In this document: positions 2,416 to 60,041 of the stretch, in pieces
Layout of the letters: each line of letters begins with the position of its first letter
Position numbering within the stretch: position 1 is the first letter of the stretch
Assembly (NCBI GenBank): GCA_050084985.1
Contig: JBITNC010000001.1
Span: 192,820,001 to 192,884,000, forward strand
Direction of reading: 5' to 3'
Origin: Nageia nagi
Taxonomy: Eukaryota; Plantae; Pinophyta
Length of the DNA stretch: 64,000 bases
Made by a program: the position numbers and the translations under genes
Notes under the pieces: model-generated
Databases searched by the model: none
Seen by the model: the letters and a program-made list of their open reading frames with translations, nothing else
Told to the model about the DNA's origin: nothing

Positions 2416-2449
2416 ATCTTATGGTGGCTCTTGAGGTCTTCGCTTGCTA

Positions 2450-5400
2450 GATAATAGAACCCTTACTGCTTTTAGCTATTTTTTTGGATGCAACTTTTGT
2501 AGGAGTTTCAGCTGGTGAAATTAACCCCATAAGGAGGAGAGGATAAATTTTCTTATTTAGATCTTTTAGGTCTTGATAATCAACTTGTGACAAAATAGAG
2601 GGGCTTATATCTTCATATTATCTACTTTGAACCATGTTAAAACACTTTTTAGCCTCCCAACATGTAGGAGTCTTGTAATTACCTCCTAAAAAAGGTCATT
2701 TATTTATTGTAGATTTGAGATTTGCTTCTTAGAAAAAGATTATTCATGGAATTGAATAGTATTGGATACCCACCTAGAAGCACTACCTTGTACATTTTAC
2801 TTCTCCTATAATTTGGGAGCTTTCATTTCAATTAAAGAATTAAAGAATTTATTGATAAATCCCAACTCTATTTTGAGCTGGTGTTTATTAATCTCTATAT
2901 TGAACATCAAATTTTGGAGTACTCATATATCCTAGATTCTTCTCAAATATGATTGTCTTGGCCTAGGAGTAATGGCTGCTATATCTTTCTTGGTTAGGGC
3001 CCTCATCTAGCTCTGCATTTTTTCAACCATTGACCTTGGGATTTCTAGAGCCAACCAGTGAAGAGTAGTATGTGTGGTGAATTGCTTAATGGCTTGTTCT
3101 ATCTAATTTTTCAACAAATGTAAGTGTGATAAATTCACCATCCTATCTCTAATTTACTCCACCAAAGACTTCCTAAAACCTATTATGAGCACGAGTAGCT
3201 TTGAGTCATCATAATATAATACTTTTTTGGCTACTACAATTATTTGCAACTTGATCTTAACTTGTTTGACCTTTTGGCCATCCATAATTGTAGCTTGAGA
3301 TTTAAGGTATTGTATGCCTCAATTTTCATTATTTATCTCGACTTGTATTTCTATTAGGCTCTTCTCAAATTCTAACTTTTGCTTATCTAGATTTGCAAGC
3401 ATATCTTTGTTTTTATTCTAAAAATAGATGACTATTTTGTCTTTAAGGGAGAAGTATTTTTTATACTAATATGTATTCTTATTTAATCTATCTATCTTAG
3501 TCTCCATTTCTTAAAGATTTTTACCAGCCACTATTGAAGTATTTACAAGGAATCTAGATTGGTCTATTATCATAGCACTCTACATATTTACATTAATGAT
3601 AGCCATGGGAGTAGTGTATAGTCCTCCTTCTTTGAAGGGCATGTAGGAAATTTTAATATCTCTTATCTTTGTAATTTTACCCAAAATTTTGGAATCTTAT
3701 TCTAGGATCATAGGGGTTTATTTACAAAAGTTTCCTAATAAATGGGCTCCAAAATCTATGTCAAACAAAATACTTTTAATCTCCTCTTTTGAGGTTGTAG
3801 GAACCAAAGAATGTTGAGGTGTACATACACCTGAAGTTGATCCTATGATCTGTTGAGTAGGTTCTAGCTACTTTGAAGGTGTTGTTTCTATAATTTTTAT
3901 ATCTTCTTCTGCTTCCTCCATAACTTTTCCTTCTTCAATAGTCTTTTCCATAAGGTCATATTCTTCCTTTCTTCTAAACTCATCATCATCATTATCATCC
4001 AATGCACCTCCAAGTGTAGCTATTGTGGAACCATCTATTCCAACAACATTATCTTTGCCTTGCTGAATCTCAACCTCTATCTCTTATGACACTTCTTGAT
4101 GAATTTTAGTATTTGTATTCTATGGCCTTTGTGTGTCCTTTGCATCAAACATTTATGTTGGCCCTATAATAGCCATTGGCATTTCTTGAACTAGTTTTGG
4201 AGCTAGAGGTGGGGTCTTTGGTACCCATGATTGTGTGGTATTAGGCTTCTTAGTTGACTTATTTTCTTTCTCTAGGACTTGCTCAACTTGATCTTATTCC
4301 AAGGTTTGAATTCTTCTATTTTTCATTGGCTATTTCAAATTGGAGGGTCCTTTACACTCTTTTTTCTTTATTTTTTTCTTTTACTTACACTAAAAATTTG
4401 GCAGCAGAAGTTGGCTTACTTCTGGTAGAGGGTCTTAACTATATTGGGTCTCCCATAACTTTTCATAATTGAACTCACCAAATAGTTGTTTTTCAACTTG
4501 ATGAATTTTAGTAGTGTGGTCAAATCTAAATTTGGTAAAATAATAATTTTTTTTGGGTCACCAACCCAACTTATCTGTTAACTAGATCAACACCTCTAAG
4601 TTTAGGATGAAATCTTACCATATTTTTTCTTAGTTCCTATATCTTTTAATCCTCTCAAGGGTCATCTAGGCCTTATCTAGAGGTCCAAATTTTCATTCTA
4701 GGGATGCCTCAACTTCTTAGTTTGATTTATAAAATACTCTACATGAGGTCTATGCTCATGAGAAAAGGTCAGGCCTTTCTTGCCTGATTTTATCACTTTT
4801 TTCATTTCCCCTGAAGGATCATACATCCAAGGGGCTTCTACCATATCTAATTTAAAATTTTGTACAATAAAATTAGATATGTTATCTTTACACCCTAATT
4901 CTAATAAAGTGAAATTTTTAGTAGTAGTTGGTATATCTATAATGGATTTAAAACTATTCTTAGAGCCATTATTAGTCTCTATAGCACATATTTCTCTACC
5001 CATATCTATAGAATACAACTTTTTAGTCACATAATTAGGCAAGAAAATATGATTCATCAATTTTGTTAACCCCTTGTAGCTCTTGTATGATGCTCTAGTG
5101 CAGCCTACTAAGAAACTTCTTGATCATAATTTGCACCATTGGTGCATAGAATTTATCCATGAATTCATAATATGACCCATGTAATTTGGTCAATACTAGG
5201 ATTCTCAAATCAATTGAGGAAGGTCCAATGCTTAGGGTAGTAGACTAAATTTGGAGGCTTGCTTCCACCAACTTTTCAAGATTTTGATGGGCTAAGAGCC
5301 ACCAAATATATGAAGAATACCTAAAATCTAATTTTTCAATTTTAAAAAGACACCTTATTATCTCATTCGAGATGAAAGTGGGGAAGTTGTAGTAGATGTG

Positions 5401-6105
5401 TGCTTCTATAATATTATATTCCATCCTTACCATGGCTTCATCTACTTCAATTTGGGTCTTTTTACAAGGATTACTACTAATGCTTGCAGTACTTTTCTAT
5501 CACATGTCTTCTCAAACAAGGTAATTTCATAGCTCAACCAAAGCTTTGTAGTCCTAGTTCCCAAGTACCTCTCATCTATCTAGTTTAGTATTTCTTCATC
5601 ATTCTTATAAAAATCATCCTTTTCTCTTCTTAAGTCAATCTACTTCTTCACATGAAATGTCTAGTCAACTGGGATGGAAAATGTTTGAATGATGGATTTA
5701 GGGGAGTAGTGCAGTATTAATTCTACTTTTTGCTTGAATACATCCTTTTATTATTAGTATTTTAATACCACTATCTCATACCCCTTATTGTTTATTCCTA
5801 TGTGCCATTAAATACTACAACTTGAAGCAAGTGAATGACTCATAGGGCACATAATAAGCTAGGCCTTGGTTGATCATAACATCTCTTTTAGAGTGTGTTA
5901 GTGACATCCCTTTACCTATAACCTTAGGATTCATATGTTACAATAGTATTCATTTTGGATCAACCCTCCATGTATCAATGTGATTTATCATCCCTATTTT
6001 ATTCTAGTTCACTTTAGGAGCATTCTCGAGGTATTCATTCTAGATGGTAATTAGGATAGCATCTACTTGCTCAAATTTAGCTATAGTTGATGGTTTAGAT
6101 GCCAT
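2450..6105 (-). pseudogene. Extra sense ORF downstream of pol in copy A (~1200 codons, disrupted)
   Basis: ATG at 6105 (MASKPSTIAKFEQVD). ORF pieces 5245-5433 and 4698-5060 align at protein level with pieces in B and C. Later part is charged and coiled-coil-like. Confidence 0.8.
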
Positions 6106-12667: not shown

Positions 12668-12684
12668 AAAATGGATACTTATAC

Positions 12685-14714: not shown

Positions 14715-14719
14715 GTGAT

Positions 14720-17700
14720 TTCATAACACCTAATAATATTGTATAGTGTAAATACTCTAATGTTTCTTTTTATTGTTAAAAAATAAAAAATAAAAAATTC
14801 TTGTATATATTGGTTCACCAATGGTGCACTTTCCAAGGAGGTAGGTATTTGTTAATGCTTGCATTAACTAAGCATGGTGGAGGTTAAACTTGATGGATGT
14901 AAACCATATTATCAAAAGGATAGCATTTAAGAGTATATTTTCTCAAAAAAATCACCATTTGCACCTTATCTTCCAATTTAAATATGGTGTGCTTGAATTA
15001 AATATGATCATGCTTATCATCATTGACACTACACTTTGTGCAAGCCCCATTATTCCTTGTTCATTAATTTCCATTAATAAATGATAGTTGTAAACCCTAG
15101 GCAAATAAAATATACTCCTTGACCTCTTATTTCTTCACTTAGCAAATTTTAGAGCCTAAGCTTTCCAAAGTTGCAGAGCATATCATCTACTAAGTTGTTA
15201 ACGCAAGGTGTGGAAGAGTATCAAAGTTTGATCTTATAGAGGTTCTATGTACTTGATTACCTAAGCTACATAAAAGTTATTCAACACCATGGTTAGCACT
15301 AAATATACTATAGCAATTGAGTAAGAGGGGTAGATGCTAACCTAATAGCGATTCATGAGGAATACCTAAAGAATTCTTTTGATGTCAATTGGACAGAGGT
15401 AAGAATCATCAATCATTTGGATACCTAGAAAGAAAACCTTGAAAGAATCCTATTGTAGCACTAGATGCCAAAAATTACAAGTAAAAGAAATTCATTAGTA
15501 GAATAAGAAGAAATGTTATGCTAGACTAGGGCTTGGCATATTATATGCCCTATAAGTATTTCACTTATCCAAAACTTATTTATTCAATTGCACTTAGGCA
15601 TATCCAATAAGGCTATGAGGTTAAAGCTTATAAGGAGTATAATAAAGGAGAATCTAAGTCTAGGTATCAGCTTGATATATTTTTGGACTACTCTCCATAG
15701 GAAATTGTATACACATTTGCAATCTTGACTTATTGGAGCTTTCATATCAAGAAGTAAATTGATCTCAAGAGAGAAAAGGTTCATTTTTATTAGAATGAGA
15801 GTGAGATGTTGTATTGGATTCATAAGAGGTATGAAGGTAGATGCATTAGGCTCCTTCAAATATATGACATCACTTCATTTAAGAAATCATGAGACATGAA
15901 GGTCTTACATGCATTGATATTTTCTTGGTAAGAAGACCCAAATTTAGGTAGATGAAACCATAATAAGAATGGCATATAATATTATTGATGCACATATCTA
16001 TTATGATTTTCAAGAAAAATCTATTCAATATTGAAAATTTTGATTTTTAGCACTTGCCATACTTGTGGTGGCTCATAGTCCACCAAATTTGGAAGCTCTG
16101 GCAAAAGGAGGGCTTAAAATTGAATTGAAAACTTTGTCCATAGTACCTACACCAATTTATTTAAAAGTGTTAGTGCTTACAAAATTCCATGGCTCATACT
16201 ATGAGTTATGGAGAAATTGTATGCCCAAGTGATGTAGATTCTCATGGGAAGGGTTACTCACAGATTGCATCGGTCAACCATGGAGGAGTTGCAAGGATGC
16301 AACAACATTAGAGACTAGTATTTTTTGAAAAATCATACAACTATAAAAAGGTACGGGTATTTTGAAAATTCATTTTTGTTACCAAAATTTGTTACCCTAC
16401 AGTTGTAATCTTTAGAAATGGTTTGGTAAATGTGCACAATAGAAACTAATTATAGGTTCGAGGGTAATTTTAAACCCATTATCAAAATGCCTTCCACTAT
16501 TGCAAATTTTACTTTGATAGAAATAGGTTGTGAAGATGAGTTAGAAACTTTTATTGAATTTTAAATTGAATAGTGTATATGCCCCTTAAATATATGACCT
16601 AATGGGTAATATAATAAAATTAATAAAATCAAATAAAAAAATGCCTAACATTTTACCATGAAGCTCAATTGCATGTTAAATATTTTACAAATCAAATAGA
16701 ATAAGAGGTTGAGGCATCCCCAAAGTGGGAATTCAGGATCATTAACAAGGCATGGATGGCTCTTGAAGTGATGGAAAAGTATAGAATTTAGGAGGTTAGA
16801 TGCCAAGAGTTTGCCTTGAACCCAAAGTTTGTCACCTAGTTATGGTATGAGTTGGGTGGGGACCCCAACAAAATAGAGTATTTCACTAAATTTATATTTG
16901 AATATACTAACAAAGCAAATCATGTTGAAAAATAATGCTTTGGTTAGTTTCAATGTGATTAGTACTTAAATACCCAATACATGAAAGACCCACTATCAAA
17001 AATAGGAAAGCCACCACCAACCAATTTTTAAGGGAAAGTTGCAAAAGAGGATCAACCATTGGTGCAGTGGGTACTCAAGCTATAAAACCCAATGAAGAGA
17101 AGAGAAGAATAAGCTTCTAGTTGATGGTAGCTTCAATAAAAGAAAAAAAAAATAACTACTACTTCTTAGGAGTCTTATCTAAAGAGAAGAAGAATTAGAA
17201 CATTATCATAAGCATAATAAACCTCGAAGAAGAAATAGGTAGAAAAGAAGGCACATACCATTAAGTCATATGTGGCAAGAAGCACTTAGACCCCACCCCA
17301 TCTCCCCAAGAAATAATCCATGAATAGCCTAAACCAAGTATAGGGGAAACTAAACTGATGAATGTTGAAGAAACCCAAAGGTCACAAAGCACTAACACCA
17401 TTGTTTATCAAGATACTCAATAAGAAATGAGAGATGAAGTGCAATAAGGGGGGGAATGTACTAGGCATAGGTGGTACCATAACAATGAGAGGTGATGTAG
17501 GAAAAGATGGAGATGATGGTGATGACAAAGATCTAAGCAAAAAAAAGACTTTGGCACAAAGGACAATCCACCTAAAGAAAAGCCTATCATAGATGAAGAA
17601 GAAAGAGATGTACAGATTACAGCCTCTATAGAGAAAGCAACTCAAAAGCCTGGTCATGATACTCTAGCATCCACCTCATGAGCAGGTGAATATTTCCATT

Positions 17701-18770
17701 CATTAATTCCTTTTTCCACAACCTCATAAGAGAAAATAAAAAGTCATTTTTCTACTCAAGTAATAGAGCCCATATATTGGGAAACATTTGTTAATAAACC
17801 CCCTATGCTCTTGGAGCAATAGATGAAAATTTTGAGTAAAGTAATGAAAATGGTGGATATTATAATTGCTCAAATGTCTTTTAAAGAAGGGAAAATAGAC
17901 ACAACTCCCATAGTTGTGATAAATGTAAAAATGCAGAGTGCTCTAGCTATGGACCAATCCAGGTTTTTAATTAATACTTCCCTGATGGTAGGAAAGAATC
18001 TCCAATCTATGGATAACAAGATAGATAAGTTGAATAAAAAGATTAATCAATATAATAAATACTACCTCTATAAATATAAAATGTTATCCAAGTTATAGAA
18101 TCAAGAGTTAATAGATAAATTGTCCAAGCAAAAGTTTGATCATGAAAAGAGCCTTGAAGAGGCTAAAGCTGAGCTAGAAAGCATGAAGAAACAAATTAAA
18201 AACCTAAATTCTCAGGCCATAGTGATTGAAAAATAAAAGGCTTAGTATACTGAAGAGGAGTTGAAGAAGATAGTAGCAACAAATAAAGTGCTAAATGATG
18301 ATAAGGTCAGGTTGCTATAGATTTTTAAGAATTTTAGAAAAATACTAGTTGAGCAGATAGGAGACAAACTGGTCAACATATCCTAGCTCTATATATTATA
18401 GAATCAAATAGAATAAGATCTCTAGAAATAGTTTCTCAGACCATACTTCATAAACTAGTCTTAATAATCCCCATATCAATGATTGAAGGTATGCAAAGTT
18501 GGCTTAGGGCCTTAACCAAGAAATATTTGACCATAATTACTCCAAGGCCTAGATAAACCAATCTGAGAAGGACAAAGGATATCTATGATTTGCAATTTTT
18601 AGTGTTTGTTATGGATTTGGAGAAATATCAATTAAATATAGAGATCAAATTTGTAAATATATTCTTTCATTCTTTAGTCCAATTGAAAGCTCCCAAATTA
18701 TGAGAGGAACTAGATGTACAGGGTAGCATCGATCGATGGGTGGTGAATACCAAATAATTTTTGGAATAGT
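14720..18770 (+). mobile_element. Right part of element C: post-pol spacer and extra ORF (ATG 15289), truncated before the 3' LTR
   Basis: Colinear with B ~53822-57900 (e.g. YLWWLI-HQ; LKAPKL..E.DV..S.DRWVVNTK). Similarity ends abruptly near 18770. Confidence 0.85.
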
Positions 18771-18784
18771 TAAAAATTAATTTT

Positions 18785-30300: not shown

Positions 30301-30324
30301 AAGATGCATCATGAATAAACTAGG

Positions 30325-43058: not shown

Positions 43059-43765
43059 TTTTCATTCTCTTTTCCCTCCGGTCCAGAATTATTTCTCTGA
43101 CGCGGGGGAGCTCTGGAAGTACGATCATGAGGAATCACAGAGGCCGTGAATGGCTTCTTGCATGAAGGGCAAATAATGAAAAGGCCCATGTATTCTAAGG
43201 CGAACTCAAAATGTATTCTACAGCTACTACATTGTGTCCAGAAAGATAGCTCACCACCAGCTCTATTAGAAAACCCATCACAATTGACGCTATTACTTAC
43301 ATTGGTGTTGTCCTTCTTTGGCGGCTTGCGCTTCCTGGTCTTTGGCTGCTTCTTCTGAGAGGGGGCAGTGGATTTCCTCGTTAGGTCGTAAGAAGCCCTA
43401 GTTGTGGAGTCAGATAACACGCGCGACGCCTCTCCGATGAACTTGAATGCCTCTTCAGCTCCAGGGGACTTGTTTTTATCGGGGTGTAAAACAAGGGCTA
43501 GTTTTCTATACTGTTTTTTGATGAGGGTTTCTTCGACAGTCGAATCCACCTGCAAAACGGCATACCAGTCGGGGACGCCATTGATTTTGATCTGGGTGGC
43601 AATGTGGACGTCGAGAACAGCTATGAATTGGGCGAGACCTTCAAGGGAAGGGTACATTTGCTGGGCCTTGAGGGCTAATTTCTTGGCCCCGGCCATATCC
43701 TGCGCGTGGAATTTCTTCTCTGCAAATTCCTTGGCTCTGTATGCTTCTTCTTTGTTGGATTCCAT
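42524..43765 (-). CDS. Plant J-domain (DnaJ/Hsp40 class C) protein with zinc-ribbon; family that often carries DUF3444
   Basis: [20 protein letters not shown]-terminus; DWYAVLQV...[15 protein letters not shown]-domain; FWTQCSSC...CPSCKKPF zinc ribbon. GC- and CpG-rich. The C-terminal ~178 aa are probably out of frame. Confidence 0.9.
42590..43062 (-). repeat. Coding tandem repeats: 72-nt units plus a ~190-nt higher-order duplication
   Basis: MPxQSKGSExPKKQSEPxKEKxxQ twice, then GSEVPKKQ...[16 protein letters not shown]...KKxQKKxAQ twice. Confidence 0.9.
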
Positions 43766-44688
43766 CTTCCCTTGAATTGAAATCGGAGCCAGAGCGAAAG
43801 AAGATCAAGCGAAGAAGCTACTCCACATCGTATCCGAATTTGGATTTGGTTGAAAATGGAGGAGAGGACAGGGCATGCTGCCTCTGCCGCCAAGTACTAC
43901 TGAAATTCGTGTGGGGCAAATTTTCAATTTTCGCGGGGAGTATTTTGAAAGAAGATTCAAATTATTCATGTTCAAAAACAAGGGACCACCACACATTCAA
44001 ATGTTTTAGGGCAAATGTCACCTTTCCACAACAACCAAGGTTTGAGTTAGAAATTTTGATGGGAACTAGGGCTATCAATAAGAAGATAAAGTCCATTCCT
44101 CTTCAAGATATTCACTTGAAGGGAGAGCTTATAAAAATGAAATGTGTAACAAGTATTTTTCAAATTTCATTACCTTTTATAGTTTAAATTATTTATTTAG
44201 TATAGAGAGTTGTATTTTATATTTTGTAATAAAAATGTCTCATTCCTCCTGTTAATCTAAGGAGACAGCACACACCTTAAGCTACAACAACTTGCATGGT
44301 AGGTTGAGTGATCACTATTGGTTGTGACAAACTTGAGGGTTGTAGAAGGACCAACATTCTTCTTGTTCTTTGTAATAACTATAGTCTACTCATTAGAGGG
44401 AGAAGCTTAAGCAATGGACACAGAAGCCATAAGGGTTTACCCTTTAAGCTTAACTTTTTCCTCCATTAGAAGATAATTATTAATCTAGTTGAAGGCTAAT
44501 TGACAATTGTAACAAGTATTTAGAAGGTTGATATAAGTTATAACCCTTTGATTGATTATCAAATCATCAACATGAATGTTAATATACTCTTTAAGATCTT
44601 TAGACCAAGATTGAAACAATAGGAAGAAGTTATGAACATACTAAGGTTTGTGGTACAAACTCAAATTCACTTAAGAAGGGTTAGCAAA

Positions 44689-45859: not shown

Positions 45860-47680
45860 TGTTATTCTTACATAATCACACTCTAAAAGGTGTAATATTT
45901 TTTCAATTCATTATTCTATCATTCATTTATTCTTTATTCTCAATAAAGTCTCTTCTATAAATCTCGTTCCTTATATCCTTTTCTTTCACAATTGTAAATG
46001 ATGTACAAAGTGTAAAGTATCTATACTTAGTCTCTTTTTCACATTCTAGTTAGGATTTGTATTTGATCAAGGCATGTCCAAGCCATGTTCATGCTACCAG
46101 GTCTTGGTCAAGTAAAGGGCCCTTAAAACCTTACCATTTTGTTATGAGGTAGGTATTGTTTGTATATACTCATTTGTCTCATGTTTGGGAGATGTGAGTA
46201 AGTTAAAATTTGAAGGGTTCCCATTTTTGTAGAATCGGCTAAGCCATTTTTGAGAAGTGTTTTATAAGGTCTATGTGTGTGTCTAAGTCTAATTCGAGTT
46301 TTATCGAAAGTATAGTTACTTAGGTTTGAGTATTATATAGTACAAGAGTTATTTCTAGGTATTGTTGTATATAACTATCAATCTAAAGTCAAGTCGCTCA
46401 GAAGGTGATATTTTAGAACCCATGGAATTCCAAAGGAGGAGTTTTACCTTTTGATAGAAATTAACAGGCTCTAACTTCAATACATCATTGGGTAGTCCAT
46501 AAGATCTTAGCGGTAGGATATGTTACAATGCTTACATTCAACAAAACCCATCAATTTTCAGTAATGATGTTATTCTTTTTAAAGAAAATTGATGGGTGAT
46601 AAGGCTTCTCAAATATTCAACAAACCCCTCTAAGGAAAATAAGATCCATCAAGCATGAATAAAGACTATAAGAGGAAGGAAATACCTAGGTCCACTTAAT
46701 CAAGAGTGTGTAACCCCTGGGACTCTACCAACGTGTTGACTATAGCTCATTTCCATGTGGTAGTTGTAGTTCACCTTTAGGTTTGAATAATAGATCTATC
46801 TTCACCCTTACAGTGATCGTAACCTACAACAACAATGCAAAATATTTAATGGTTGAAAAAAGTTAAGTAGTTGCCAACTGTTGATAGAGGTTTATCATAC
46901 CAATCAAGACGATAGGCCATACCTCCTAAATTCAAAAACTATCCTAGAAGATCATAGTCAAGGATAAATACAATGGATTATGGTTGGGTAGATACAAATA
47001 TTGAAGGTTTATAGATTTCCAAGCATTAGTGTTGAGTTAAGAAAATTAGTTACAGTTGTACATTATTTTGTACATCTTGTAATTGTTTAATTCATATTGT
47101 TCTTAGTCAAAGAGTAGTTAAGAGCATTAACGGTGGACAACCACTTGTTGTAAATAAGATTCTATAAATAGTGAACTGTTAGAGGTCCAAAAGGTCGAAT
47201 ATTTTAGCAAGGTTGCCCAGTGTGAGAACTATTTTCATATATGATAATAAATATAATGGTATTTTTCCCTTTGCAATTTGTGGTTGTTATCTTATTTTAT
47301 AATTGTTATGTATGAAGCATTATCCTAAATTGTGGCTATGTAGTGCAATTGTGAGACCCTAATAATAAGTTAGTTATTCTATTCTTAATCTTGGTAATGG
47401 ATTACTACTTGTGCGGTGATGCCCAAGCTAATTAGTTTTGTTTTACTTTCTATAATGTAGATTTTTATCTCTTTCCTGTTACTCTTTACTTCTTTCATCT
47501 CTTTCCAGTTACTTTTGACCTCTTTCATAGATAAGAATCATCCTATAACTTGGATATTGATTAGAAAACCCCCATGAGCTTATTGTCTCACCACCTTTTG
47601 CTTTTTCAAGAACCCTACTATTGCAAGCAACAGAGAACTATACTAGATCAAACCTTTAGATTACATTATATTGATCAACA
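45860..47680 (+). repeat. 5' LTR of copy B
   Basis: TGTTATTC...TGATCAACA; direct repeat of 58237-60041; TATAAATA near 47163. Confidence 0.93.
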
Positions 47681-47697
47681 ATAGACACATTCATTTT

Positions 47698-47715
47698 TGG
47701 CAAGCTTGATGGAAC
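47698..47715 (+). other. PBS of copy B (tRNA-Arg-like)
   Basis: TGGCAAGCTTGATGGAAC, 17 nt after the LTR end; homologous to the PBS of A. Confidence 0.65.
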
Positions 47716-50349
47716 CTGAGCAAAAATCCATATCATTTGGGTGTGAATAAGCTAGATAGCTCTGTTTGGTGAGCTATCACTCTTGCTATTCAAATATTAT
47801 AACATTTCTTAAACCTTATTAGCGAATCTATTTTCATATTGGTAATATTTTTGAACCTTGACACCTCTAATTTATACATTTACCAAAAGTAGTACCAGAA
47901 ATTCTTCCCAACAACCTAAATTTCTAGAGCTATCAATTCCTCGAAGGAGGTCTACGTGAAAGGTTTGTTGGACTCTCTCTCCTCAAATCCCTTGATATCC
48001 ATTCCTTTAACAACTGTATTTGATTAAATCTAACAAAATCCTTCACCTCATACAATTAGTCCAAATATGGCTCAAATTACCCTTGCAAACTTTCCTGCTT
48101 GAAATAATAGTCATCCATTGGTAGTTCCTGCCAATTCTTTGACTACTCCTTAGGTAGCTTTTAAAGTTTTACCTAAATATGATGGGTCGAGAAAAATGCC
48201 TTATAAACATTATCAATATGTATCTCTTTTGGCATATAGATTTGATATCAATGATGAAACTATAATGACTAGATTGTTGTCACATTCTTTTGACTCCTCA
48301 ATCTATAAATACATGGGGAGAATTGTGTCAATCTCTAATCAAGATATTTGTTGAATATTGTGATGATAGTACATTCTTGATCCTTATTACATGTATTAAA
48401 AGACATTCCCATGAGTATGTGGATGATTTTAACATCAAATTTGAGAAAACTTGGAAATCCATTCCAACAAGGATCAAACCAACTAAAGATCAAGCCTTGG
48501 TATGCTATAGGAAAGCCTTCCACCCAGATTTAAATGTGTTGATTGTTATGTCAGAGTACACTCTCCCATAAATCTACCAAACAACAAAAATTATTGAACA
48601 CACGTTGGTCTTCTCAAGAACAATGCAACCAAGATCCATTATGCCCTTATTTCCTAATCTACCTCTAATGAAATCTCCATTACATATTCCTCATCCAGGA
48701 GTGCTAGATTTACCACCTCCTCCTCCTAACCATATAGCTCAGAACTAAGAACCAACACTACCATCTCTAGCATATATAAGTACAAGTACTAGTTTAAACA
48801 CACAAGAGGAAGATAGGATAAGACAACTGGAGATAATCATTAGGAATCTTACAAATAAGCTCACTTTGCAAGAGAGGGAGAATTAAGGCTTAAATTATAG
48901 GAGATATGATAATCAATATCAACCAAGATTCTAACCCAGAAACAACCATCCATAATAGCCTCCTACTCCTAAAGCTGTAGATAATGCAATCATGGTTATT
49001 TCTCCAAAAAAGTGATGCTTTAGGTATTACAAAATAATGTCCTCCTTGTTCACTTCCACATTTTCCATACTCTTGTGCAATATATCAACATCAACATTTG
49101 GGCTTACATTCTGACCAAATGGTAGAAACTTCATCATATCCTATTGAAGATCTTACCATGATTAATTTTTGGGTTTTAGGTTATGCTCATGAACAAGCCA
49201 ACTATGTTCAAACTAGAGCTTACACTTCAATAACCCTGCAATAAGCCCAATTCACTCAACAAAATTAGCAAACCACTCCAGCTCAACCTGATCTAAAGAG
49301 AGCTAAGGATCCTATGTATCAACCATAAAATCAAGTAAATCAACTTCCAAACCATCTAAGTCAAGTTTCATAAGGCCTGGGTAATGTTGCTCCTATTGCA
49401 AGAAACCCTGCTCAAACTAGAAATGATATCCCAGGAAAAGAGAGACTTGCTCCATTAAGATATCCTTTCATAATTAGCATCATAAGGATAAGGATACTTA
49501 GAAGTTCAAATATTACCAACCTACTTAAATAGGTGATTCAACCTCTTATGTTCCATACAATATTATGGAAGAATTGAAAAGAACACCTTCTAAAATGATA
49601 ATGTTTGATGCATTAAGGATTCTAGGTCAAACTAACCTTTTGCAAGAATCTTTGAAGATTAAGAACAGTAAGAAAAAGCTAAATGAGGATAATGTAGTAT
49701 TTTCAAATATTGATGATGTTCCTCCAGCTCCTATAGGTATAAGAAGATCACCTTTTTATCTATCTCTTATATTAGAAGGTCGAATAGTTCAAATTTGTAT
49801 GATTGATACTAGAGCTGCCATTATCGTTATTCCCAAATTTATTGCAAAAAGATGAAATTGTATAGAACTTGATGTATATATGGATTCATTCAATTAGATT
49901 CTTCCCCTATAGATCTTATTAGTAGTGTTAAAGGAGTTTTCATAACCTTGAATGCATTCCTTGATATTTGCATCATTCAGGATATTATAGTAGTTAATCT
50001 TCCACCTCTATATGGGATCTATTTGTCCAAAGAATCCATTGCAACATTGGGAGGGTATTTAGCCTTAGATTATACACACCTCCTACTTCCTTTCTAGAAC
50101 AAGCATGTAAAAATCCCAAATGAGGGTACCAAGAATATCCATGTTAAGAAGATCACTGAGCAAAATTGCATGAATGGCCATGAGCAAGCATAAACATTTG
50201 AAAGGGATACACTCATGGAATCATTGCTAACCACAAAAACTCTTTCAAAAAATGACCTCAATTATTAGGTCACTGATATTGGTATGGGAAACTGCTACTT
50301 ATTTGAAAATATTCAGCCAATCTCAGTCATAACTAAAAGAGAACATGAA

Positions 50350-50730
50350 GTATGGATGATGTTATTTAATGGAGCTAGATGTAAACATAGATGTGGAGTT
50401 GGTATTATTTTTAAGTCACCTGAGGGACACATGAGAAGATTCTTATTTAGATTTAGATGGATTTGCACCAATAATGTTGCTAAGTATGAACCCCTTTATT
50501 TGGGGCTATCTAAAGCTATCAGCATAGGTATCAAATGCTTAGATTTCCATGGTGATTCTCAGCTAGTTATTAATCAAGTCAAAGACAAGATTAGTGCAAG
50601 ACATCACTACCTCAAAACTTATAGTAATAGGATATGGGACCTATTAGAATCTTTCTTGAATATCAATTTTATCTCTATTCTTAGAAAGTATAATCAAATT
50701 GTTGATGCACTTGTGAACAAAGGAGCATGC
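50350..50730 (+). pseudogene. Additional archaeal-type RNase H (aRH) between protease and RT
   Basis: WMMLFNGA (FFDGA in A); TNNVAKYE.L..GL..A; HGDSQLVINQV; RKYNQIVDAL. Confidence 0.9.
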
Positions 50731-53682
50731 TTCAACCTTGGTCATCATAAGAGAGGTAGCTATGGAGTCAAAGTTTTATGTAGGTCATATGTACCTAACA
50801 TTGCAAATTTTTGGTAGATATTTGAATCTGATGAGCATATTATGAATTTTCTTATAGATGAAGCAGTAGCTCACACCTTTGGTGTTATAGAACTACCTTA
50901 TTATTTTTAAGAATCAAATGTTATACAACTAAGAAACAATATTGTACCTAAAGGTTTGATTTCCTTTGAACAATTATTTGATTCTAAATATGTTCAAAGA
51001 GCTAAAATGTTAGCTATTCAAAAGGAAAGCAAAAAATGCATAAAAATTAGATCAAAATGCACTAAAGAAGAAAATCATATGCTACTTTAGATTTACCATG
51101 AATTTGCTATGGTACTTGCTTGGACTTATGATGATATGAAGATATATGACAAGAATGTGATCCAAAACACCATTGAACTTAAGCCAGAAGTGAAACCATA
51201 TAGGTAGAAGTAGAGGCCAGTAAACCCAAGAATACAAGAAGCCATGAAACAGGAGTTGCTTAAACTCCTAGATGGTAAAATTATTTATTCTATCAAGCAT
51301 TCATATTGGGTAGCTAATTTAGTCCTAGTAAGGAAAAAGAATGGAGAAATCAAGATATGTGTATATTTCATAAATATGAACCAAGTGTCCCTAAAAGATA
51401 ACTATCCTCTTCCTCCCATGGAATAAATCCTGCAAACAATAGCGGAGGATGTTGCTTTTATATTATTGATGACTTTTTGAGATTTAATCAAATTTGGGTA
51501 AAGGATGAGGATTAATATAAAATTGCATTCACTACTAAGTGGAGAACATTTGCATTTCAGAGAATGCCTTTTGGTCTCTCCAATGCTGGGGCTACTTTTC
51601 ATATAGCAATGGACCATGTCTTTGGTGAGTTGATAAACAAGATAATCCTTGTCTACTTGGATGACATTACTATGTTTTCAAAGAGCAAAAATGATAACTT
51701 AGACAACCTCAAGCAAGTTTTTGAAAAATATATGCAATTTGGGATTTCTATCAATCTCAAAAAAACTATTTGTATGGTTAACCAAGGAAAACTACTTGGC
51801 AACATTGTTTTAGAAGAAGGATTGGCAATTGATCCTGATAGAGTCAAAGATATTGATGCATTACCTCTACCCACCAATAAGAAAGCCCTGAAATCCTTCC
51901 TTTGTCAAATCAATTTTGTTAGAAAATATATTAGTGATTTTTCTCGTATTGTTTCTCAAATCATAGCAATACTGAAAATATATGCTTAGTTCTCTTAGTT
52001 AGATGAAGCAAAGCAAGCTTTTCATGATATCAAAAAAATAATAATTGAAGATCCTATTTTGAAAATCTAGATATTTCAAAGGATTTTATTATATATGCAT
52101 ATGGAGTAGAGAAAAGCATTGTAACTATTTTAGCATAGAAACATGACCAAAAGGAAGAACATCCCATTGCCTTTCATAGTTAAAAACTGCACCAACACAA
52201 AAAAGGTACTCATTTATTGAAAAGTAAATGTTTCCATAATGAGAGGGCTAAAAAAATTTAAGCACACGTGTTCCATAATAAGATCCTTGTATATACCATT
52301 TACCTAAATGTGAGAAATTATGTTATCAAATGGGAATTGGTTGAAGGAAAAGCTGGTTGGATCATAAGAATAATGGAGTATGATGTTGAAATCAAACCAA
52401 CCAAGCTTATCAGGGGAAGAGCCCTCTTTGAAAACATAGCAGAGGTTGCACACATAATTGCTATTATTGAGGATGAAGAGCATCTTAACCAAGAGAGTGA
52501 TTGGATAAAGCAATTTATATTTTATTTTAAAATTGAAAAATATCCTAAATTTTTCTATAGGTTTCAAAGAAGGGGATTTAGGTTACAAGCATTTAAGTCT
52601 GTGATGATAGATGATCATCTCTATAGGAAGAATTTTGATCAAACCCTATTGAGATGTGTGACTCAAGATGAAGCCTAGAGAATTTTACATGAATTTAATT
52701 ATGGATTCTCTAGAGGACACTATAATGGTCCAACTACATCAGCAAAAATATTGCAATTGGACTATTATTGGCCTACTATGCTTCAAGATTCATTTAAGAT
52801 AGTCCAAGAATATGATAAATGCAATATATATGTGCGAAAAAGGAGATAAGATGCAATTCCTTTCAAACCTATGGTTATTGAAGAACCTTTCCAACAATAG
52901 GATCTAGACTTATTAGTGTTATTAACCCAAATTCTTTAGTAGGCCATAAGTTTATTATGACTACAATATACTACTTAACAAGATGGTCAAAAGCCATGCC
53001 ATGTAAAAGTGCAGATCAAGAGGCAGTAATAGAGATGATCAAAAGATTAATCAATCGCTTTGGAATCCCACACACTATTATATCAAATAATGGTTTTGCA
53101 TTCATCAAGGCTAATTTATTAGAGTTTGTTATTTAGTACAAAATTTATTGGTTATTCTCTTCAAACTATTACTCATAAGGGAATGGGTTGGATAAGTCAA
53201 CGAATAAAAACTTAACTTGGATCATCAAGAGAACCATTGAAGGGAATCCCAAGAAGTTGCACACAAAGTTGGACAATGCATTATGGGTTGATAGAATTAG
53301 TATCAAATATGCTATCAAAACATCAACCTATACATTAGTTTATGGTAAAAGACTAGTGTTGCCAATTTATCATAGTTACCTGCATTGAAAATCCTATAGG
53401 AGTTAGAAGACTATGAATTTGAGCCATTAAAAGTAAGGTTCAATCAATTGATTAAGTTGGAGGAAGATAGGAACAAAGCTTATCAAGCCTTCCAAAATAG
53501 ATAAAAGATTATCAAAAAGTGGTTTAACAAGAAGAAATCTTCCCAGGTGAAGTTTAAAATAGGAGACATCATCCTGAAATAGGATAAGAAAAGAGCAAAT
53601 CCTAGGAAATATCAAAAATTTGACTCCTTATGGAGTGGGCCCTATATCATCATTAAGGTCTTATAGAATAATGAATTAAAAC

Positions 53683-53792
53683 TTCAAGATATTTTTGGAT
53701 CTCGAGAACTACCGATACTAGTGAATGAGATCTTGCTTGATTTCAAGATATTTTTGGATCTTGAGAACTATCGATACTAGTGAATGAGATCT
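53683..53792. repeat. ~50-bp tandem duplication with 9-bp filler near the end of INT in B
   Basis: TTCAAGATATTTTTGGATC...GAATGAGATCT at 53683 and 53742. Single copy in A and C. Confidence 0.9.
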
Positions 53793-54409
53793 ATCTCAAG
53801 CATTATCGAGCATTAGGGTGATTTTCTAATATCGTTGAAGTCTATACAATGTAAATAGTTGATCCATTTAATGCTATGATTATTTCCTTTAATGCATTTA
53901 TTTTTGTATATATTATTATATATATGGTGTTTACCATAAATGTGCTTCCAAAGGCATTAGCTAGCTATTAATGGTAGCATTTACTAGGCATGGTGGTAGT
54001 TAAGTTTGACGACCACAAAATATCACATTAGAGGATTGGCCTCACAACACAAGATTGGCTTGAAAAATTGCCCATCTCACGCGTCACCTACAATTTTAAA
54101 ATTTGGCATAGCTTAAATAAATACTATCCCACCTATCATCTTTACACTGCACTCTACGTGAACCCTAATATTCCTAATTCATTAATTACCATTAATAGTA
54201 AAGAGTCACAAAACCTAGGTAAATAAAATATAGTCCTCAACTTGTTATTTCCTCACTTAGCAAATTTCAAAGCCTAAGTTTTTGGGAGTTGTAGAGCATA
54301 TTATCTATAGAGATTTTGGCATTGAGTATGGGGGAGTTTCAAAGCTTTATTTTATAGAGGTTGTAAGAATTTGATGATTACCCCAACTACATAGAGATTA
54401 TTGAACATC

Positions 54410-57400
54410 ATGGCAAGTGCTAAGAATACTATGGTGGCTATAGAAGAGGGACTGGACTCTGACTTGGTAAGAATCCATGTGGAGTATCTGGATAATTCTC
54501 TTAGGACAAACTAGATGGAGGGGGGAGTCATGAATCACATGGATACCTGATGTGTTGATCCTTATAGGCTACTATTGTAGCACTAGAGGCCAAAGGTTAT
54601 AGGAAAAGGGAAGTTGCAAGCTAGAGGAAACAATGTTATGCTAAACTAGGGCCTGATATACTTTGTGCCCTACAAATGTTTCACCTATACAGAGCTCCTT
54701 ATTTCCATTAAATTAAGACACAACCCATAGGGATATATTATCAGATATTATGAGTAGAATAAGGGGAATAAGAATCCAAGTACCAATTAGATATCTTTTT
54801 GGACTACTCCCCAGGTGCAATTATCAATGCTTTCATAGTGTCGACTGATTAGAGTGTGCACAGGCTCAAGAAATAAATCGATCTTAAAAAGGAAAATATG
54901 GATTTTTATTAGAATGAAGATGATATGATTGATTGGATTAAAAAAAGGTATAATAGGAACACCACCAAGCTCCTTCAGAGCTACAACATCACCTCCTTTG
55001 AGAAATATTGGGACAAACAAGTCCTACAAGCGTTAACAGACATTCTAGGGTGGGTAACCCAAATTAAGGTAGATGAAGCCATGATAAGGATGACATATAA
55101 TATTATTGAGGCACACATCTACTACAATTTTCCTACCTTCATCATAAATGAGGTTAGGAAAAATCTATTTAATATTGAAAAATCTAATTTCTAGCACTCA
55201 TCCTATTTGTGGTGGCTCATAATCCACCAAAATTTGTAAGCTTTGGTGGAAAAAGGACTCCAAATTATGTTGGCTAATTCATCTATAGCACCCACACCAA
55301 TTGATTTACGAGTGTTAGTACTCACAAAGGTCCATGGCTCATATTATGAGGATTCTCACTGGGAGGGTCTCTCATAAACTACATCAATTTTTCTTGGATG
55401 AGATTCAAGGAGGTAATAAGATAGGAGATTGGTATTTTTTGAGGAATCATATAATAATAATGAGGTATGGCTATTTATAAACCCCATTTTTTCTACCTAA
55501 ATTTATCACCCAATAATTATATTATTTAAAAATGGGTAGACAAATGTGTGCTATAGAGACTAAATATGTGTTAGGGGGTAATTTCAAACCCATTATAAAA
55601 ATACTTACCACATCGATAAATTTTACCTTATTAGAAGTAAGTTGTAAAGATGAGCTAGTGGACTTCATTGAACAAAATTTTAAGTTAGATAGTGTAGACA
55701 ACCCCTTGGATGTACAACCTAGTGGGTAAGATAATAGAAATAATAAAGTCAAATAAGAAATGCCCAACATTTGGTCATGAAGCTCGACCCCGTATATAGT
55801 ATTTTGTAAATTAGATAGAAGAGGATATCAAGGTATCCCTGAAGTGGGAATTCAATATTTTGGATAAGGCATGGATGGCCCTTGAGGGATTAAAAATGTA
55901 TAGGATTTGGGAGACTAGACAATAGGGATTTACCTTGAACTCGGAGGTCATCACTCAGTTATGGCATGAGTTGGGTTGGGGCTATAACAAAATTGAATAT
56001 TTTACTAAATATAGGTTTGAATATACCACCAAAGTGGCTCATGTTGAAAAATAATGCTATGGTGGATTCACTTATGATCAATATTGGAATGCTTAATGCA
56101 TGAAAGACCCACTCTCAGAGAAGGGACAACCACTCCTAGCCATTTTTCAAGGAAAATCCATGGGAGAAGATCAACCATCGATGCAATAATCATAGGAGCT
56201 ATAGAAACCAAAGAAAAGAAAGGTAGAAGAAGGCTCTCATTCTCAACAACCTTAGAAAAAGAACAAAAAAAGACATAAGTTGCAACAACTATTGCTTTCA
56301 AGGAATCTCCCCAAAAGAAACCAAGAAGAATCATTCTGGTGTCAAAGGAATAATAACCCCCAGAAAAGAAACATGTACTAAAAAACAAGAATCCTATTAA
56401 CAAGCCACTTGTATCAAGAAAGGTCAAGACCCCATCTCCATGGGCAATAAGTGAAGAATAACCAAAGCCAAGCATAAGAGATACTGAGATAGTAGATGCT
56501 AACACCTAAAAACCCTAAAGCATAGACATGGTAGGATTTCAAGATGCACAACAAGAAGCCAAGGATGAAGTGCAATAAGGGGGAGGTAATGTTCTTAGAA
56601 TGGTTCCAATAGCAACAGCAAGAGGATAAGCATGTAAAGATGAAGATGATGATGATGATGATCCAAACAACAAGAAATACTTTAACCTAATGGACAAGGT
56701 TGAAGAGAAATATGCAACTATTGCAAAAGAAGAAGAATATAAGCAAGAAGAACTCATTTTGGAAACAATGAAGTAGATGCTTACCCTGGATACTCTAGCA
56801 TCAACTTTAAGGGATGGTACATCTCAACATTCTTTGATTCCTTATTCTACTACCTCAATCGATTAAATAAAAAGAATTTTTCTACTCAAGTAGTAGATCC
56901 TTTTGATTAGACATCATTCATTAATAAACCCCTTTCATTCCTAGAGCAAAAGGAAAGATTGTTAAGCAAAGTGACTGATACGAGGGATGTTAAAATAGTA
57001 TAGGTTCCCTTTAAAGATGGGAAATTAGATAAAACACCTATGATAATTGTAGATATAAAGATGCAAAGTGTCCCAATGGTAGATTAGTCTAGGTTTTTGG
57101 TCAATACTTCCTTGGATGCTAGATAGAGTCTCTAAGATATGAAGAATAAAATAGAAAAATTAAATAAAAAGGTAGAGCAACTCAAAGGTGATTGCTCCTA
57201 GAAAGATAAAATAATGGTCAAACTATAGAACCAAAATAATGAATTAAGTTAGAAAATAGCCAAATCGAAATTTGAGCATGAGAAGAGCCTACAAGATGCC
57301 AAAGCAAAGCTAAAGAAAATGAAGAAAGAAATTGAAGAGCTAAAGGATCAATCCAACATAATTGATAGGAAAAAGCCTCAAAAGACATAAGAAGAGTTGA

Positions 57401-58200
57401 TGAAAACTCTAGTAGACAATAAAATTTTGAATAATGATAAGATGAAGCTGCTAGATATTAGAAAGAATTTTAGAAAAAAATGGTAGAATAGATTAGAGAG
57501 CAGATGGTTAGCATGTTGAAGTTGTATTACTTGAAGAATCAAGTAGAGCAAGCTATCCAACAATGTGATTCCTAGACCACACTCTAGTTGTTGGCCTTAA
57601 AATCCCCAAGAGCAAAAATTGAGAAAATGCAATATTAGCTTCGACAAATATCAAAAAAATATCTAGCCACTATGACTCCAAGGCTGAAGTAAATAATTTT
57701 GAGGAGAATCAAAGATATTTGTGATCTATAGGATCTGATATTTGCCTTAAACTTGGAGAAAAGTTAATTAAAAGTTGAAGTAAGTTTTATGAATATCTAT
57801 TTTCATTCTTTAATTCAATTGAAGGCTCCTAAATTACGGGAGGAATCAGATGTAAAGAGTAGCTTCGATCGTTGGGTGGTGAATACTAAGTAATTCTTAG
57901 AGTAGATTGTGTCTAAGAAACAACTCTCATACCTACAAGAGATCAATGATCTAGATCAGGAGGCTATATTAAGAATTTTGAATGCTTGTAGGCTGGAGAA
58001 TGTGTTAACAATATTTAGATCAAATATTGTAAAATTCTAAGTATGCCCCATTTTATCACAAGTATACAATCAAGATCTCAACCATCTATATAAGAAACTT
58101 TAGTCTCTTCTTCCTTTAGATTTGATTCCATTGCTAGAGGCCCCACTAAAAGACACAATTGGATAGCCAAGTGGAAGTGACTAGTGAAAGTTATTTTTAT
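54410..58200 (+). pseudogene. Extra sense ORF downstream of pol in copy B
   Basis: ATG at 54410. ORF pieces 54925-55194 and 55532-55729 align with A 5245-5433 and 4698-5060. Confidence 0.8.
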
Positions 58201-58236
58201 TCAATAGAATGAATACCTTAAGATCCACCAGAAGAC

Positions 58237-60041
58237 TATTATTATTACAAAATCACACTCTAAAAGGGGTAATATTCTTTCAATTCATTATACCATTCAT
58301 TATTATTTATTCTTAATAAAGTCCCTCCTATAAATATTGCTCATTATATCCTTTTCTTTCATAATTGTAAATGATGTATAGAGTTTAAAGTATCTATACT
58401 TAGTCTCTTTTTTCACATTCTAGTTAGGATTGGTATTTGATCAAGGCATATCCATGCCATGTTCATGTTACTAGGTCTTAGTTAAGTAAAGGGCCCTTAA
58501 AATCTTGCCATTTTGTTATGAGGTAGGTATTGTTTGTATATACTTATTTGGCTCATGTCTAGGAGATGTGAGTAAGTTAAAGGTTGAAGGGTTTCCATTT
58601 TTTTAGAATTGGCTAAGCCATTTTCAAGAAGTGTTTTATAAGGTCTATGTGTGTGTCTAAGTCTAATTCATGTTTTGTCAAAAGTATAGTTACTTAGGTT
58701 TGAGTCTTGTATAGTTCGAAAGTTTTTTCTAGGTATTGTTGTATATAACTATCAATCTAAAGTCAAGTCACTCAAAAGGCAATATGAATTCTAGAGGAGG
58801 AGTTGTACCTTTTGATAGAAATTAGTAAGCTCTAACTTCAATATGTCATCAAGTAGTCCATAAGGTCTTAGTAGCAGGATATGTTACAATACTTACATTC
58901 AACAAACCCCATCAATTGTAAGCAATGATGTCATACTTTTTGAAGAAACTTGATGGGTGATAAGGCTTCTCAAATATTCAACAAACCCCTCCAAGGAAAA
59001 TAAGATCTGTTGAGCATGAATGAAGACTATAAGAGGAAGGAAATACCTAGGTCCACTTAATAAAGAGTGTATGACCCCTAGGACTCTACCAATGTGTGAA
59101 CTATAGCTCATTTCCATGTGGCAATAGTAGTTCACCTTTAGGTTTTAATAATAGATCTATCTTCACCTTTATAATGATCATAACCTAGAGCAACAATGCA
59201 AAATATGTAATGGTTGTAGAAAGTTAGGTAGCTTCCAAATGCTAACAAAGGTTGATCATACCAATCAAGATTGTAGGCCATACCTTTTAAATTTAGAAAC
59301 TATCCTGTAAGATCATAGTAAAAGAAAAATATCGTGGATTACAGCTAGATAGGTACAAACATTGAAGGTCTATGGATTCCCAAGCATTAGCATTGAGTTA
59401 AGAAAATCAATTACACTTGCAGATTATGTTGTACATATTATAATTTTTTAATTCATATTATTCTTAGTTAAAGAGTAGTTAAGAGCATTAATGGTGGACA
59501 ACCACCTATTGTAAATAAGATTATATAAATAGTGGACTGTTAGAGGTCCAAAAGGTCGAACATTTTACAAAGTTACCTAATGTGAGAAGTGTTTTCATAT
59601 ATGAAAATGCAATATAATGGTATTTTTCCCTCTATAATTTGTAGTTGTTATCTTATTTTGTAATCATTATGTATGAAGAATTATCCTAAATTATGGCTGT
59701 GTATTGCAATTGCAAGATCCCAAGAATAAGTTAGTTATTCTATTCTTAATCTTAATAATGGATTACTACCTATGAGGTGATGCTTGGGTTGATTAGTTTT
59801 ATTTTACTTTTTGTAGTGTAGATTTTTATCTCTTTCATATTACTCTTTACCTCTTTCATCTCTTTCCAGTTACTTTTGACCTCTTTCATATATAGGAACC
59901 GACCTATAACCTAAATATTGAGCAAAAAACCCCCAAAAATGTATTATCCCATGACCTTCTGCTCTTTCAAGAACCCTACCATTGCAAGCAATGGAGAACT
60001 ATACCAAACCAAACCTTTAGGTTACATTATATTTATCAACA
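58237..60041 (+). repeat. 3' LTR of copy B
   Basis: Colinear with 45860-47680; ends TATCAACA. Confidence 0.93.

What the first reader, a model, noticed from the sequence alone, without database searches (positions are those of the whole stretch)
54410..58200. Large conserved sense-strand extra gene in the env position of a Tat-like retrotransposon
Seen: three diverged copies (A 6105-2450, B, C 15289-18770) share an ATG at the homologous position ~450-590 nt after pol, and in A and B the frame runs almost to the 3' LTR. Protein-level conservation is clear: A EAMVRMEYNIIEAHIYYNFPTFISNEI...FRYSSYIWWLLAHQN versus B EAMIRMTYNIIEAHIYYNFPTFIINEV...SSYLWWLIIHQN; A MGREICAIET...NFTLLELGCKD versus B MGRQMCAIET...NFTLLEVSCKD. 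The layout is a globular N-terminal half, a variable basic/acidic linker, a coiled-coil-like region and a conserved C-terminal block. No signal peptide or clear TM helix was seen. Established: 3' extra ORFs of Retand/Tat are often antisense, and Athila has sense env-like ORFs. Inference: a selected accessory protein (anti-silencing, nuclear or particle function) that, with the pre-RT aRH, 17-nt PBS gap and missing PPT, defines a poorly described retroelement system. This is the best candidate in the window.
Basis: partly seen in the sequence, partly recalled or inferred. Interest (0 to 1): 0.78.

Follow-up and report, generated by a model that had tools for sequence, protein, structure and literature searches.

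The report
Giant extra gene in plant retrotransposon
A family of long-dead jumping genes, likely from a gymnosperm, carries after its enzyme gene the broken remains of a large extra gene that selection once preserved and that matched no family in the protein libraries searched; it likely made a nuclear protein that helped the element stay active.

Summary
The extra gene is real but dead in every copy seen. Copy B (54410-58187, about 1,255 codons) lies in a 14.2-kb Ty3/gypsy element ordered gag-PR-aRH-RT-RH-INT, the order that defines TatI/TatII; it holds 52 stops and 6 frameshifts. DNA-only alignments show codon periodicity as strong as in pol and none in LTRs or spacer. Across 15 copies pN<pS in 431 of 432 region-pairs, median dN/dS 0.21-0.31, linker 0.43. 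Start and stop positions are shared, single copies keep 594-935 codons in one frame, and gene distances track integrase distances (rho 0.86). There is no conserved membrane helix or signal peptide, so it is not Env. Pfam and PDB sequence searches gave no family; both folds were too weak to search with. REXdb already counts 3' sense extra ORFs in 26% of TatII elements, without a domain name, so position and aRH are known; the protein is not described in the papers I searched. Best reading: a soluble nuclear coiled-coil chromatin/DNA-binding accessory factor of the PMD/VANC/Athila-ORF type. That function is inferred from architecture only.

The parts
54410..58187 (+). Extra sense-strand gene, copy B: about 1,255 codons from ATG to the terminal stop; broken by 52 stops, 6 frameshifts and a short deletion
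54410..56150 (+). N-terminal half (about 590 codons), predicted mostly helical; no family match
   Evidence: median dN/dS 0.21-0.31
56153..56860 (+). Variable linker: basic first part with two NLS-like basic clusters, then an acidic run
   Evidence: median dN/dS 0.43
56860..57480 (+). Conserved block followed by a likely coiled coil
   Evidence: only sub-threshold hits to many unrelated coiled-coil Pfam families; dN/dS 0.23-0.25
57471..58187 (+). Conserved C-terminal block ending at a stop shared with other copies, 49 nt before the 3' LTR
54181..54275 (+). Conserved non-coding blocks in the spacer between pol and the gene; likely an internal promoter or a splice acceptor (not tested)
   Evidence: identity 0.89 at 54181-54198 and 0.70 at 54217-54236 and 54257-54275; most other 20-column windows 0.44-0.68, one 0.76
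45860..47680 (+). 5' LTR of element B
47681..47715 (+). 17-nt gap followed by a PBS-like site starting with TGG at 47698; tRNA type not determined
48269..48700 (+). gag fragment
   Evidence: weak Ty3_capsid hit, E 0.004, below cut-off
49529..50000 (+). Protease region (degenerate aspartic-protease motif read by eye; no Pfam hit)
50269..50817 (+). Additional RNase H (aRH) upstream of RT
   Evidence: RVT_3 PF13456, E 7e-14
51516..51989 (+). Reverse transcriptase (C-terminal part)
   Evidence: RVT_1, E 2e-16
52040..52400 (+). Native gypsy RNase H
   Evidence: RT_RNaseH, E 3e-6
52600..53819 (+). Integrase
   Evidence: Integrase_H2C2 E 0.0015 and rve E 8e-5, both below cut-off
58237..60041 (+). 3' LTR of element B (K2P distance to the 5' LTR 0.143); no purine tract abuts it
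2450..6105 (-). Extra gene, copy A, in a complete element (about 380-14712) with a perfect 5-bp target-site duplication; one frame from 4350 to 2500 (617 codons, stops only)
15289..18770 (+). Extra gene, copy C, cut off before its end; element A is inserted near the end of this element's integrase (window 1-352 is the upstream part)

Best explanation
This is a dead copy of a roughly 1,250-codon sense-strand accessory gene of a TatII-type Ty3/gypsy retrotransposon family, kept under purifying selection while the family was active, which likely encoded a soluble nuclear protein that oligomerised through a coiled coil and bound the element's own chromatin or DNA to keep it transcribed. Shown: the gene, its single frame, its selection, its fixed place between integrase and 3' LTR, its joint descent with integrase, its decay after insertion, and the lack of a conserved membrane segment. 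Inferred: (1) expression from a separate subgenomic RNA, using the conserved non-coding blocks 135-230 nt upstream of the ATG as internal promoter or splice acceptor; (2) nuclear import through the basic linker clusters; (3) oligomerisation through the coiled coil; (4) a helical N-terminal domain working like the PMD, VANC, Transposase_28/32 and Athila-ORF domains of related elements, as a self-promoting chromatin or anti-silencing factor. Step 4 rests on architecture and on a resemblance of helix-hairpin-helix spacing recalled from memory; no search here confirmed homology.
For: Coding signal: (mismatch by codon position 0.36/0.23/0.51 for A-B; the sense frame has the fewest stops, 74 against 193-223 in the other sense frames and 100-162 in antisense frames; pol behaves the same; 3 LTR and 2 spacer controls p 0.29-0.73). 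Selection. Decay after insertion: of 325 stop cells none lies in an all-stop column, and 207 lie in columns where other copies mostly have Gln, Trp or Arg. One frame: L004 935 codons, L005 594 codons, copy A 617 codons. A terminal stop in one column, in frame in 5 of 6 copies, using all three stop codons. Fixed position: 7 of 14 metagenome loci show pol upstream on the same strand and 6 of 14 an LTR downstream. Distances track integrase (8 elements, rho 0.86, Mantel p 0.0002). High copy: 1,502 contigs of one DNA run cover all 30 bins. No conserved hydrophobic helix; basic clusters and an acidic run in the linker. [quoted passage not shown]
Against: No Pfam family reached its cut-off for any segment or relative; PF10536, PF20167, PF03078 and PF04195 were not listed even at E<=1 or E<=0.1. 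The basic clusters matched my pattern in B but only weakly in other copies: one in L004, none in the A C-terminal read. At about 1,250 aa the protein is much longer than the 487-aa Athila ORF of PMC11728184, so it may do more or other things. The only language-model lead points elsewhere, to HUH Rep proteins, though weakly. No function has been shown for any Tat extra ORF in the papers read; PMD proteins of the host act in silencing as well as against it (PMC5418596, passages).
Confidence: 0.5

Rival explanations
1. The gene encoded a particle- or RNA-level helper (RNA export or packaging chaperone, particle scaffold, or cell-to-cell movement factor): an Env-position gene with a non-membrane role in the particle stage.
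For: Env position and sense orientation. The conserved pyrimidine-rich block ending in AG upstream of the ATG could be a splice acceptor, as reported for Bagy2; chaperone and plasmodesmata roles have been proposed for plant env-like ORFs (PMC7264820, first third read). A long coiled coil fits a scaffold.
Against: No conserved transmembrane or signal segment (windows above 1.6 occur in only 2 of 9 reads, at different places). A basic/acidic linker fits a nuclear protein better (inference).
Confidence: 0.22
2. The gene encoded a DNA-processing enzyme, possibly HUH/Rep-derived, that makes or trims the unusual ends of this family (PBS set back by 17 nt, no purine tract at the 3' LTR).
For: ESM Atlas features of one natural fragment (P0006) gave HUH Rep clusters at 0.88-0.93, with 165-183 of 256 features shared. 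The PBS gap is seen in 3 of 3 copies with a 5' LTR, and no purine tract abuts the 3' LTR in the 5 of 6 copies whose stretch reached the LTR.
Against: Recognition was 2283, under the tool's 2300 mark, so the lead is weak; a second fragment gave no hit. No His-x-His motif is conserved in that region, Rep_OBD was not among the Pfam hits at E<=1, and the region is predicted helical, whereas HUH domains are beta-sheet folds (own knowledge). The element already has two RNase H domains and an integrase for end processing.
Confidence: 0.07
3. The stretch held two separate genes (N-terminal half and coiled-coil half) and only looks like one.
For: No copy is open end to end, and the linker is the least conserved part.
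Against: L004 stays in one frame from the ATG through the linker into the C-terminal block (935 codons) and copy A from the linker to near the end. The linker still has pN<pS in 45 of 45 pairs. The all-stop test covered the two conserved halves and only part of the linker.
Confidence: 0.05
4. The region is non-coding repeat DNA whose translated similarity merely reflects DNA similarity.
For: All six frames align between copies; every copy is full of stops.
Against: Triplet periodicity, stop depletion in one sense frame and dN/dS of 0.2-0.4, with negative controls.
Confidence: 0.01

Closest known systems
TatII (REXdb; lineage II of Ustyantsev 2015; 'copia-like' aRH structure, Tat E) Ty3/gypsy elements of gymnosperms
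   Same: aRH between PR and RT; length 14.2 kb, within 8.3-18.1 kb; 5-bp target-site duplication; forward 3' extra ORF, listed for 26% of 27 TatII elements (PMC6317226 text passages and Additional file 5).
   Different: [quoted passage not shown] Here the gene is shown to be about 1,250 codons and under selection. Whether it is the same ORF family as REXdb's could not be checked: Additional files 1 and 3 were too large to read.
PMD(-coiled coil) extra ORFs of TatIII, Ogre and Tat V; TRP28 (+SMC-like) ORFs of Retand; ATLANTYS globular + long-helix protein
   Same: Accessory gene of the same clade; globular domain plus coiled coil; no membrane segment; function not shown.
   Different: Those are mostly antisense at the 3' end or sense at the 5' end. 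This one is sense at the 3' end and has no Pfam match to PF10536 or PF04195.
Athila sense 3' ORFs (ATHILA PF03078 / Transposase_32 PF20167; Bagy2 env-like)
   Same: Same position and strand; the Athila domain is modelled as a coiled-coil oligomer (PMC13547354); a possible splice acceptor upstream.
   Different: No Pfam match; no conserved transmembrane helix; more than twice as long as the 487-aa sunflower Athila ORF (PMC11728184); the host element has an aRH, which Athila lacks.
VANC anti-silencing proteins of VANDAL (MuDR) transposons
   Same: Functional model only: a TE-encoded accessory protein with a globular domain and a coiled coil.
   Different: DNA transposons of dicots; no sequence or fold link was obtained here.

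Membership tests
TatII (OTA/Tat) | aRH between PROT and RT, native RH after RT | tested here: met
   RVT_3 at 50269-50817 upstream of RVT_1; RT_RNaseH and rve downstream; same order in A, L003, L004
TatII (OTA/Tat) | RT-RH-INT phylogeny groups with TatII references | not testable with these tools
   No reference set at hand; REXdb files too large to read
TatII (OTA/Tat) | Gymnosperm host (separates TatII from club-moss TatI) | tested here: inconclusive
   No genome held; organism coded. Element size, 5-bp TSD and extra ORF fit TatII, not TatI
TatII (OTA/Tat) | TSD of 4 or 5 bp; length 8.3-18.1 kb | tested here: met
   A has a perfect 5-bp duplication, B one with a mismatch; B is 14,182 bp
TatII (OTA/Tat) | PBS mostly tRNA-Asp or tRNA-Asn | not tested
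   A PBS-like site was found 17 nt from the LTR; its tRNA was not identified
Plant mobile domain (PF10536) | Match to the Pfam model | tested here: not met
   Not listed at E<=1 for 53 members of A11, 27 fragments or 11 window segments
Transposase_32 (PF20167) / ATHILA (PF03078) / Transposase_28 (PF04195) | Match to the Pfam model | tested here: not met
   Same scans
PMD/VANC/Athila-type fold | Structural similarity of the N-terminal domain | tested here: inconclusive
   Models had pTM 0.31 and 0.26; searches with them carry no weight
Env / env-like membrane protein | Signal peptide and transmembrane helix | tested here: not met
   Hydropathy scan of 9 single-frame reads: no hydrophobic window shared between copies; a simple Kyte-Doolittle scan, not a dedicated predictor
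HUH Rep (PF01719) | HUH motif and catalytic Tyr in a beta-sheet domain | tested here: inconclusive
   Weak Atlas lead; no His-x-His column seen; no Pfam or PDB sequence hit; model too weak to exclude it

The most novel reading that the evidence does not exclude
The gene founds an unnamed family of large retrotransposon accessory proteins unrelated to PMD, TRP28 or Athila ORFs, with a captured DNA-processing (possibly HUH-derived) domain that explains why this family reverse-transcribes with a primer site set back by 17 nt and without a purine tract at the 3' LTR.
Probability: 0.07. Interest if true: 0.8.

Novelty: new variant of a known kind. Interest (0 to 1): 0.42.

Why it matters
Tat elements with aRH before RT are reported from all gymnosperm groups (PMC13468544, passages), and this family is high-copy in at least one genome. 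A gene about as long as pol, conserved nearly as well as gag-pol and kept by the whole family, must have paid its way, yet it has no name. It fills a gap in the published history of Tat extra ORFs, which had them first appear antisense in lineage III (PMC4408406). If it proves to be a PMD/VANC-like chromatin factor, it would push transposon-encoded anti-silencing back to gymnosperms and bear on the open question whether host PMD genes came from gypsy elements (PMC5418596). As it stands it is a well-supported orphan gene in dead copies, in a position where extra genes are common.

Tried and rejected
Searches without result. Long-protein searches (343-2000 and 351-2000 aa) found no relative (word-based, weak evidence). 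The third search covered only 30-41 aa proteins and is uninformative. PDB sequence searches with two profiles gave 0 hits at E<=10; PHROGs gave 0 (one of its three reads was in the wrong frame); phage DNA gave 0; viral contigs gave no locus. Two AlphaFold2 models had low confidence, and four fold searches with them gave nothing above background; this neither shows nor excludes a known fold. The Atlas gave no hit for P0023. No RNA holder was listed among sequencing runs, which says nothing about expression. None of 20 of the 59 profile hits looked up has a name; P0057 is a repeat-protein false hit. No whole genome was held and the loci could not be searched by Pfam family. A staggered alignment of fragments failed. 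Several integrase and RT queries were out of frame and matched only through DNA likeness; in-frame reads are. The bacterial promoter scan does not apply to a plant. Protein-guided dN/dS favours alike codons and is inflated by neutral decay, so one search is the independent test; saturated pairs were dropped from the medians; one A-B segment gave 0.63 and one was saturated. L009 (short, interrupted) and L010 (near-duplicate of L002) were left out. Literature searches found no description of this protein; most subscription papers, including Steinbauerova 2011, are not in the library. Earlier-finding look-ups by sequence and place were empty.

Full report
Observation. A self-comparison of the window shows two complete LTR elements and part of a third. 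B spans 45860-60041 with 1.8-kb LTRs; A spans about 380-14712 on the minus strand with 2.0-kb LTRs; C runs on the plus strand and is interrupted by A, which sits near the end of C's integrase (window 1-352 matches B's integrase, 14797 onwards B's spacer). Boundaries are supported by TG...CA-type ends and 5-bp target-site duplications, perfect for A and with one mismatch for B. LTR pairs differ by K2P 0.143 (B) and 0.185 (A), which would be tens of millions of years at a gymnosperm rate of about 2e-9 per site and year (rate recalled, not looked up).

Is it a gene? Translations align in all six frames, so I tested DNA alignments without assuming a frame. Mismatches are periodic in the extra region for A-B, A-C and B-C (statistic 125, 116, 82; null 21-25, sd about 5.5; none of 2,000 permutations reached it), as in pol (99 against 10) and gag-PR-aRH (50 against 13), and not in three LTR and two spacer comparisons (p 0.29-0.73). 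The order third > first > second position and the stop counts point to the sense strand. A short degenerate pattern found 14 further loci in metagenome contigs, which by G+C (31-35%) and content look like plant host DNA. With 12 of the 14 and the 3 window copies, pN was below pS in 431 of 432 region-pairs; median dN/dS was 0.21, 0.22 and 0.31 in the N-terminal thirds, 0.43 in the linker and 0.23-0.25 in the C-terminal blocks (protein-guided mapping, saturated pairs dropped). None of the 325 stop cells lies in a column where all copies have a stop, and 207 lie in Gln, Trp or Arg columns, the pattern expected from cytosine deamination after insertion. L004 keeps one frame for 935 codons from the ATG, L005 for 594, and copy A for 617 codons from linker to near the end. 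The ATG column is shared by 7 of 10 sequences. A terminal stop falls in one column, in frame in B, L001, L002, L003 and L007, shifted in A, and uses all three stop codons. The simplest reading is one gene of 1,220-1,280 codons. No locus holds a stop-free stretch of 200 codons in it.

Context. Pfam gives gag (weak), RVT_3 (aRH, E 7e-14), RVT_1, RT_RNaseH and integrase in that order. Of the 14 loci, 7 show pol upstream on the same strand (two of them, L002 and L010, are near-duplicates), 6 show an LTR downstream, and L003 and L004 show aRH before RT; L008 has 4.1 kb upstream without a pol match and the rest are short or rearranged. DNA distances of the gene and of integrase correlate over 8 elements (rho 0.86, Mantel p 0.0002) and the two trees differ only at one weakly supported node. 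This shows joint descent, not functional coupling. In one coded DNA run 1,502 contigs lie on the region at 80% likeness or more and cover all 30 bins. A profile search of 1.84 billion proteins gave 59 hits, 58 of them short fragments of this family at roughly 30-70% identity and one a repeat protein; the 20 looked up are unnamed singletons.

The protein. The N-terminal 590 residues are predicted mostly helical, but both models are weak (pTM 0.31 and 0.26). The linker is basic then acidic, with NLS-like clusters in B that are less clear in other copies. A conserved block, a likely coiled coil (only scattered sub-threshold hits to coiled-coil families) and a conserved C-terminal block follow. 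No hydrophobic window is shared between copies. No Pfam family reached its cut-off. The Atlas gave nothing for one fragment and a weak HUH Rep lead for another, not backed by motif, Pfam or predicted secondary structure. The spacer has conserved non-coding blocks 135-230 nt upstream of the ATG: an AT-rich element, an AATAAAA-type box and, about 34 nt on, a pyrimidine-rich stretch ending in AG. By my own knowledge of plant promoters and introns this fits either an internal promoter or a splice acceptor; neither was tested.

Mechanism. I commit to a soluble nuclear accessory factor: made from a subgenomic RNA, imported through the basic linker, oligomerised by the coiled coil, and acting on the element's own chromatin or DNA to sustain transcription (confidence 0.5). 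The gene and its selection are shown. Each functional step is inferred from architecture and from analogues: PMD plus coiled-coil and Tr28 ORFs in other Tat lineages (PMC4408406, passages), predicted DNA binding of TRP28 and nuclear location of the Grande protein (PMC11963269, passages), and the structural link of VANC with MAIN and modelled coiled-coil pentamers of VANC and the Athila domain (PMC13547354, passages and section 10). A likeness of helix and hairpin spacing to Transposase_32/PMD is recalled from memory and is a lead only.

Comparison with what is known. Neumann 2019 (PMC6317226; passages; Additional files 4 and 5 in full; files 1 and 3 not readable) defines TatI/TatII by an aRH between PROT and RT, gives TatII as gymnosperm elements of 8.3-18.1 kb, and lists forward 3' extra ORFs in 26% of 27 elements with no CDD domain in its table. 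Ustyantsev 2015 saw none in lineage II. Biryukov 2023 (PMC10508981, first third) and the 2026 Tat paper (PMC13468544, passages) deal with aRH position, not with this gene, in the parts read. Vicient and Casacuberta 2020 (PMC7264820, first third) review sense 3' ORFs as env-like. PMC11728184 and PMC5418596 were seen as passages. Eight searches found no description of this protein; the unread REXdb files may contain it.

Verdict. The finding is real and well supported as a gene. Its host element fits a known lineage, and extra genes in this position are common, also among other findings of this scan (unchecked notes). What is new is the size, the demonstrated selection and the lack of any family match, along with the set-back PBS and missing PPT. 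Novelty: new variant of a known kind; interest 0.42.

Noticed in passing
   Followed up: partly
window 58188-58236 and the matching places in A, L002, L003, L007: No purine tract abuts the 3' LTR (8-9 purines in the last 15 nt); the best purine-rich 15-mers (11-13 of 15) lie 66-78 nt upstream, at the very end of the extra gene.
   Followed up: partly
window 1-14720: Element A is nested in a related element (C) of the same family, near the end of its integrase.
   Followed up: yes
window 53680-53800: A tandem duplication of about 50 nt at the end of B's integrase.
   Followed up: no
window 42465-43804, minus strand: An apparently intact, intron-free host-like gene with a DnaJ domain (E 1e-21) and a zinc ribbon, followed by a repetitive K/S/Q-rich region that continues in another frame; a frameshift within repeats, an assembly slip or a retrocopy.
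   Followed up: no
window about 20100-26300, minus strand: Another decayed gypsy element (Retrotrans_gag and RVT_1 hits); further decayed RT-like sequence near 29900-30800.
   Followed up: partly
window about 18770-18950: Copy C breaks off before the end of the gene and is followed by a short tandem repeat (visible).
   Followed up: no
L008:4144-6624; P0006, P0011, P0023, P0026, P0051: A more distant subgroup of the same gene (about 30-45% identity to the others), showing that the family is deep; its link to pol was not seen in L008.
   Followed up: partly
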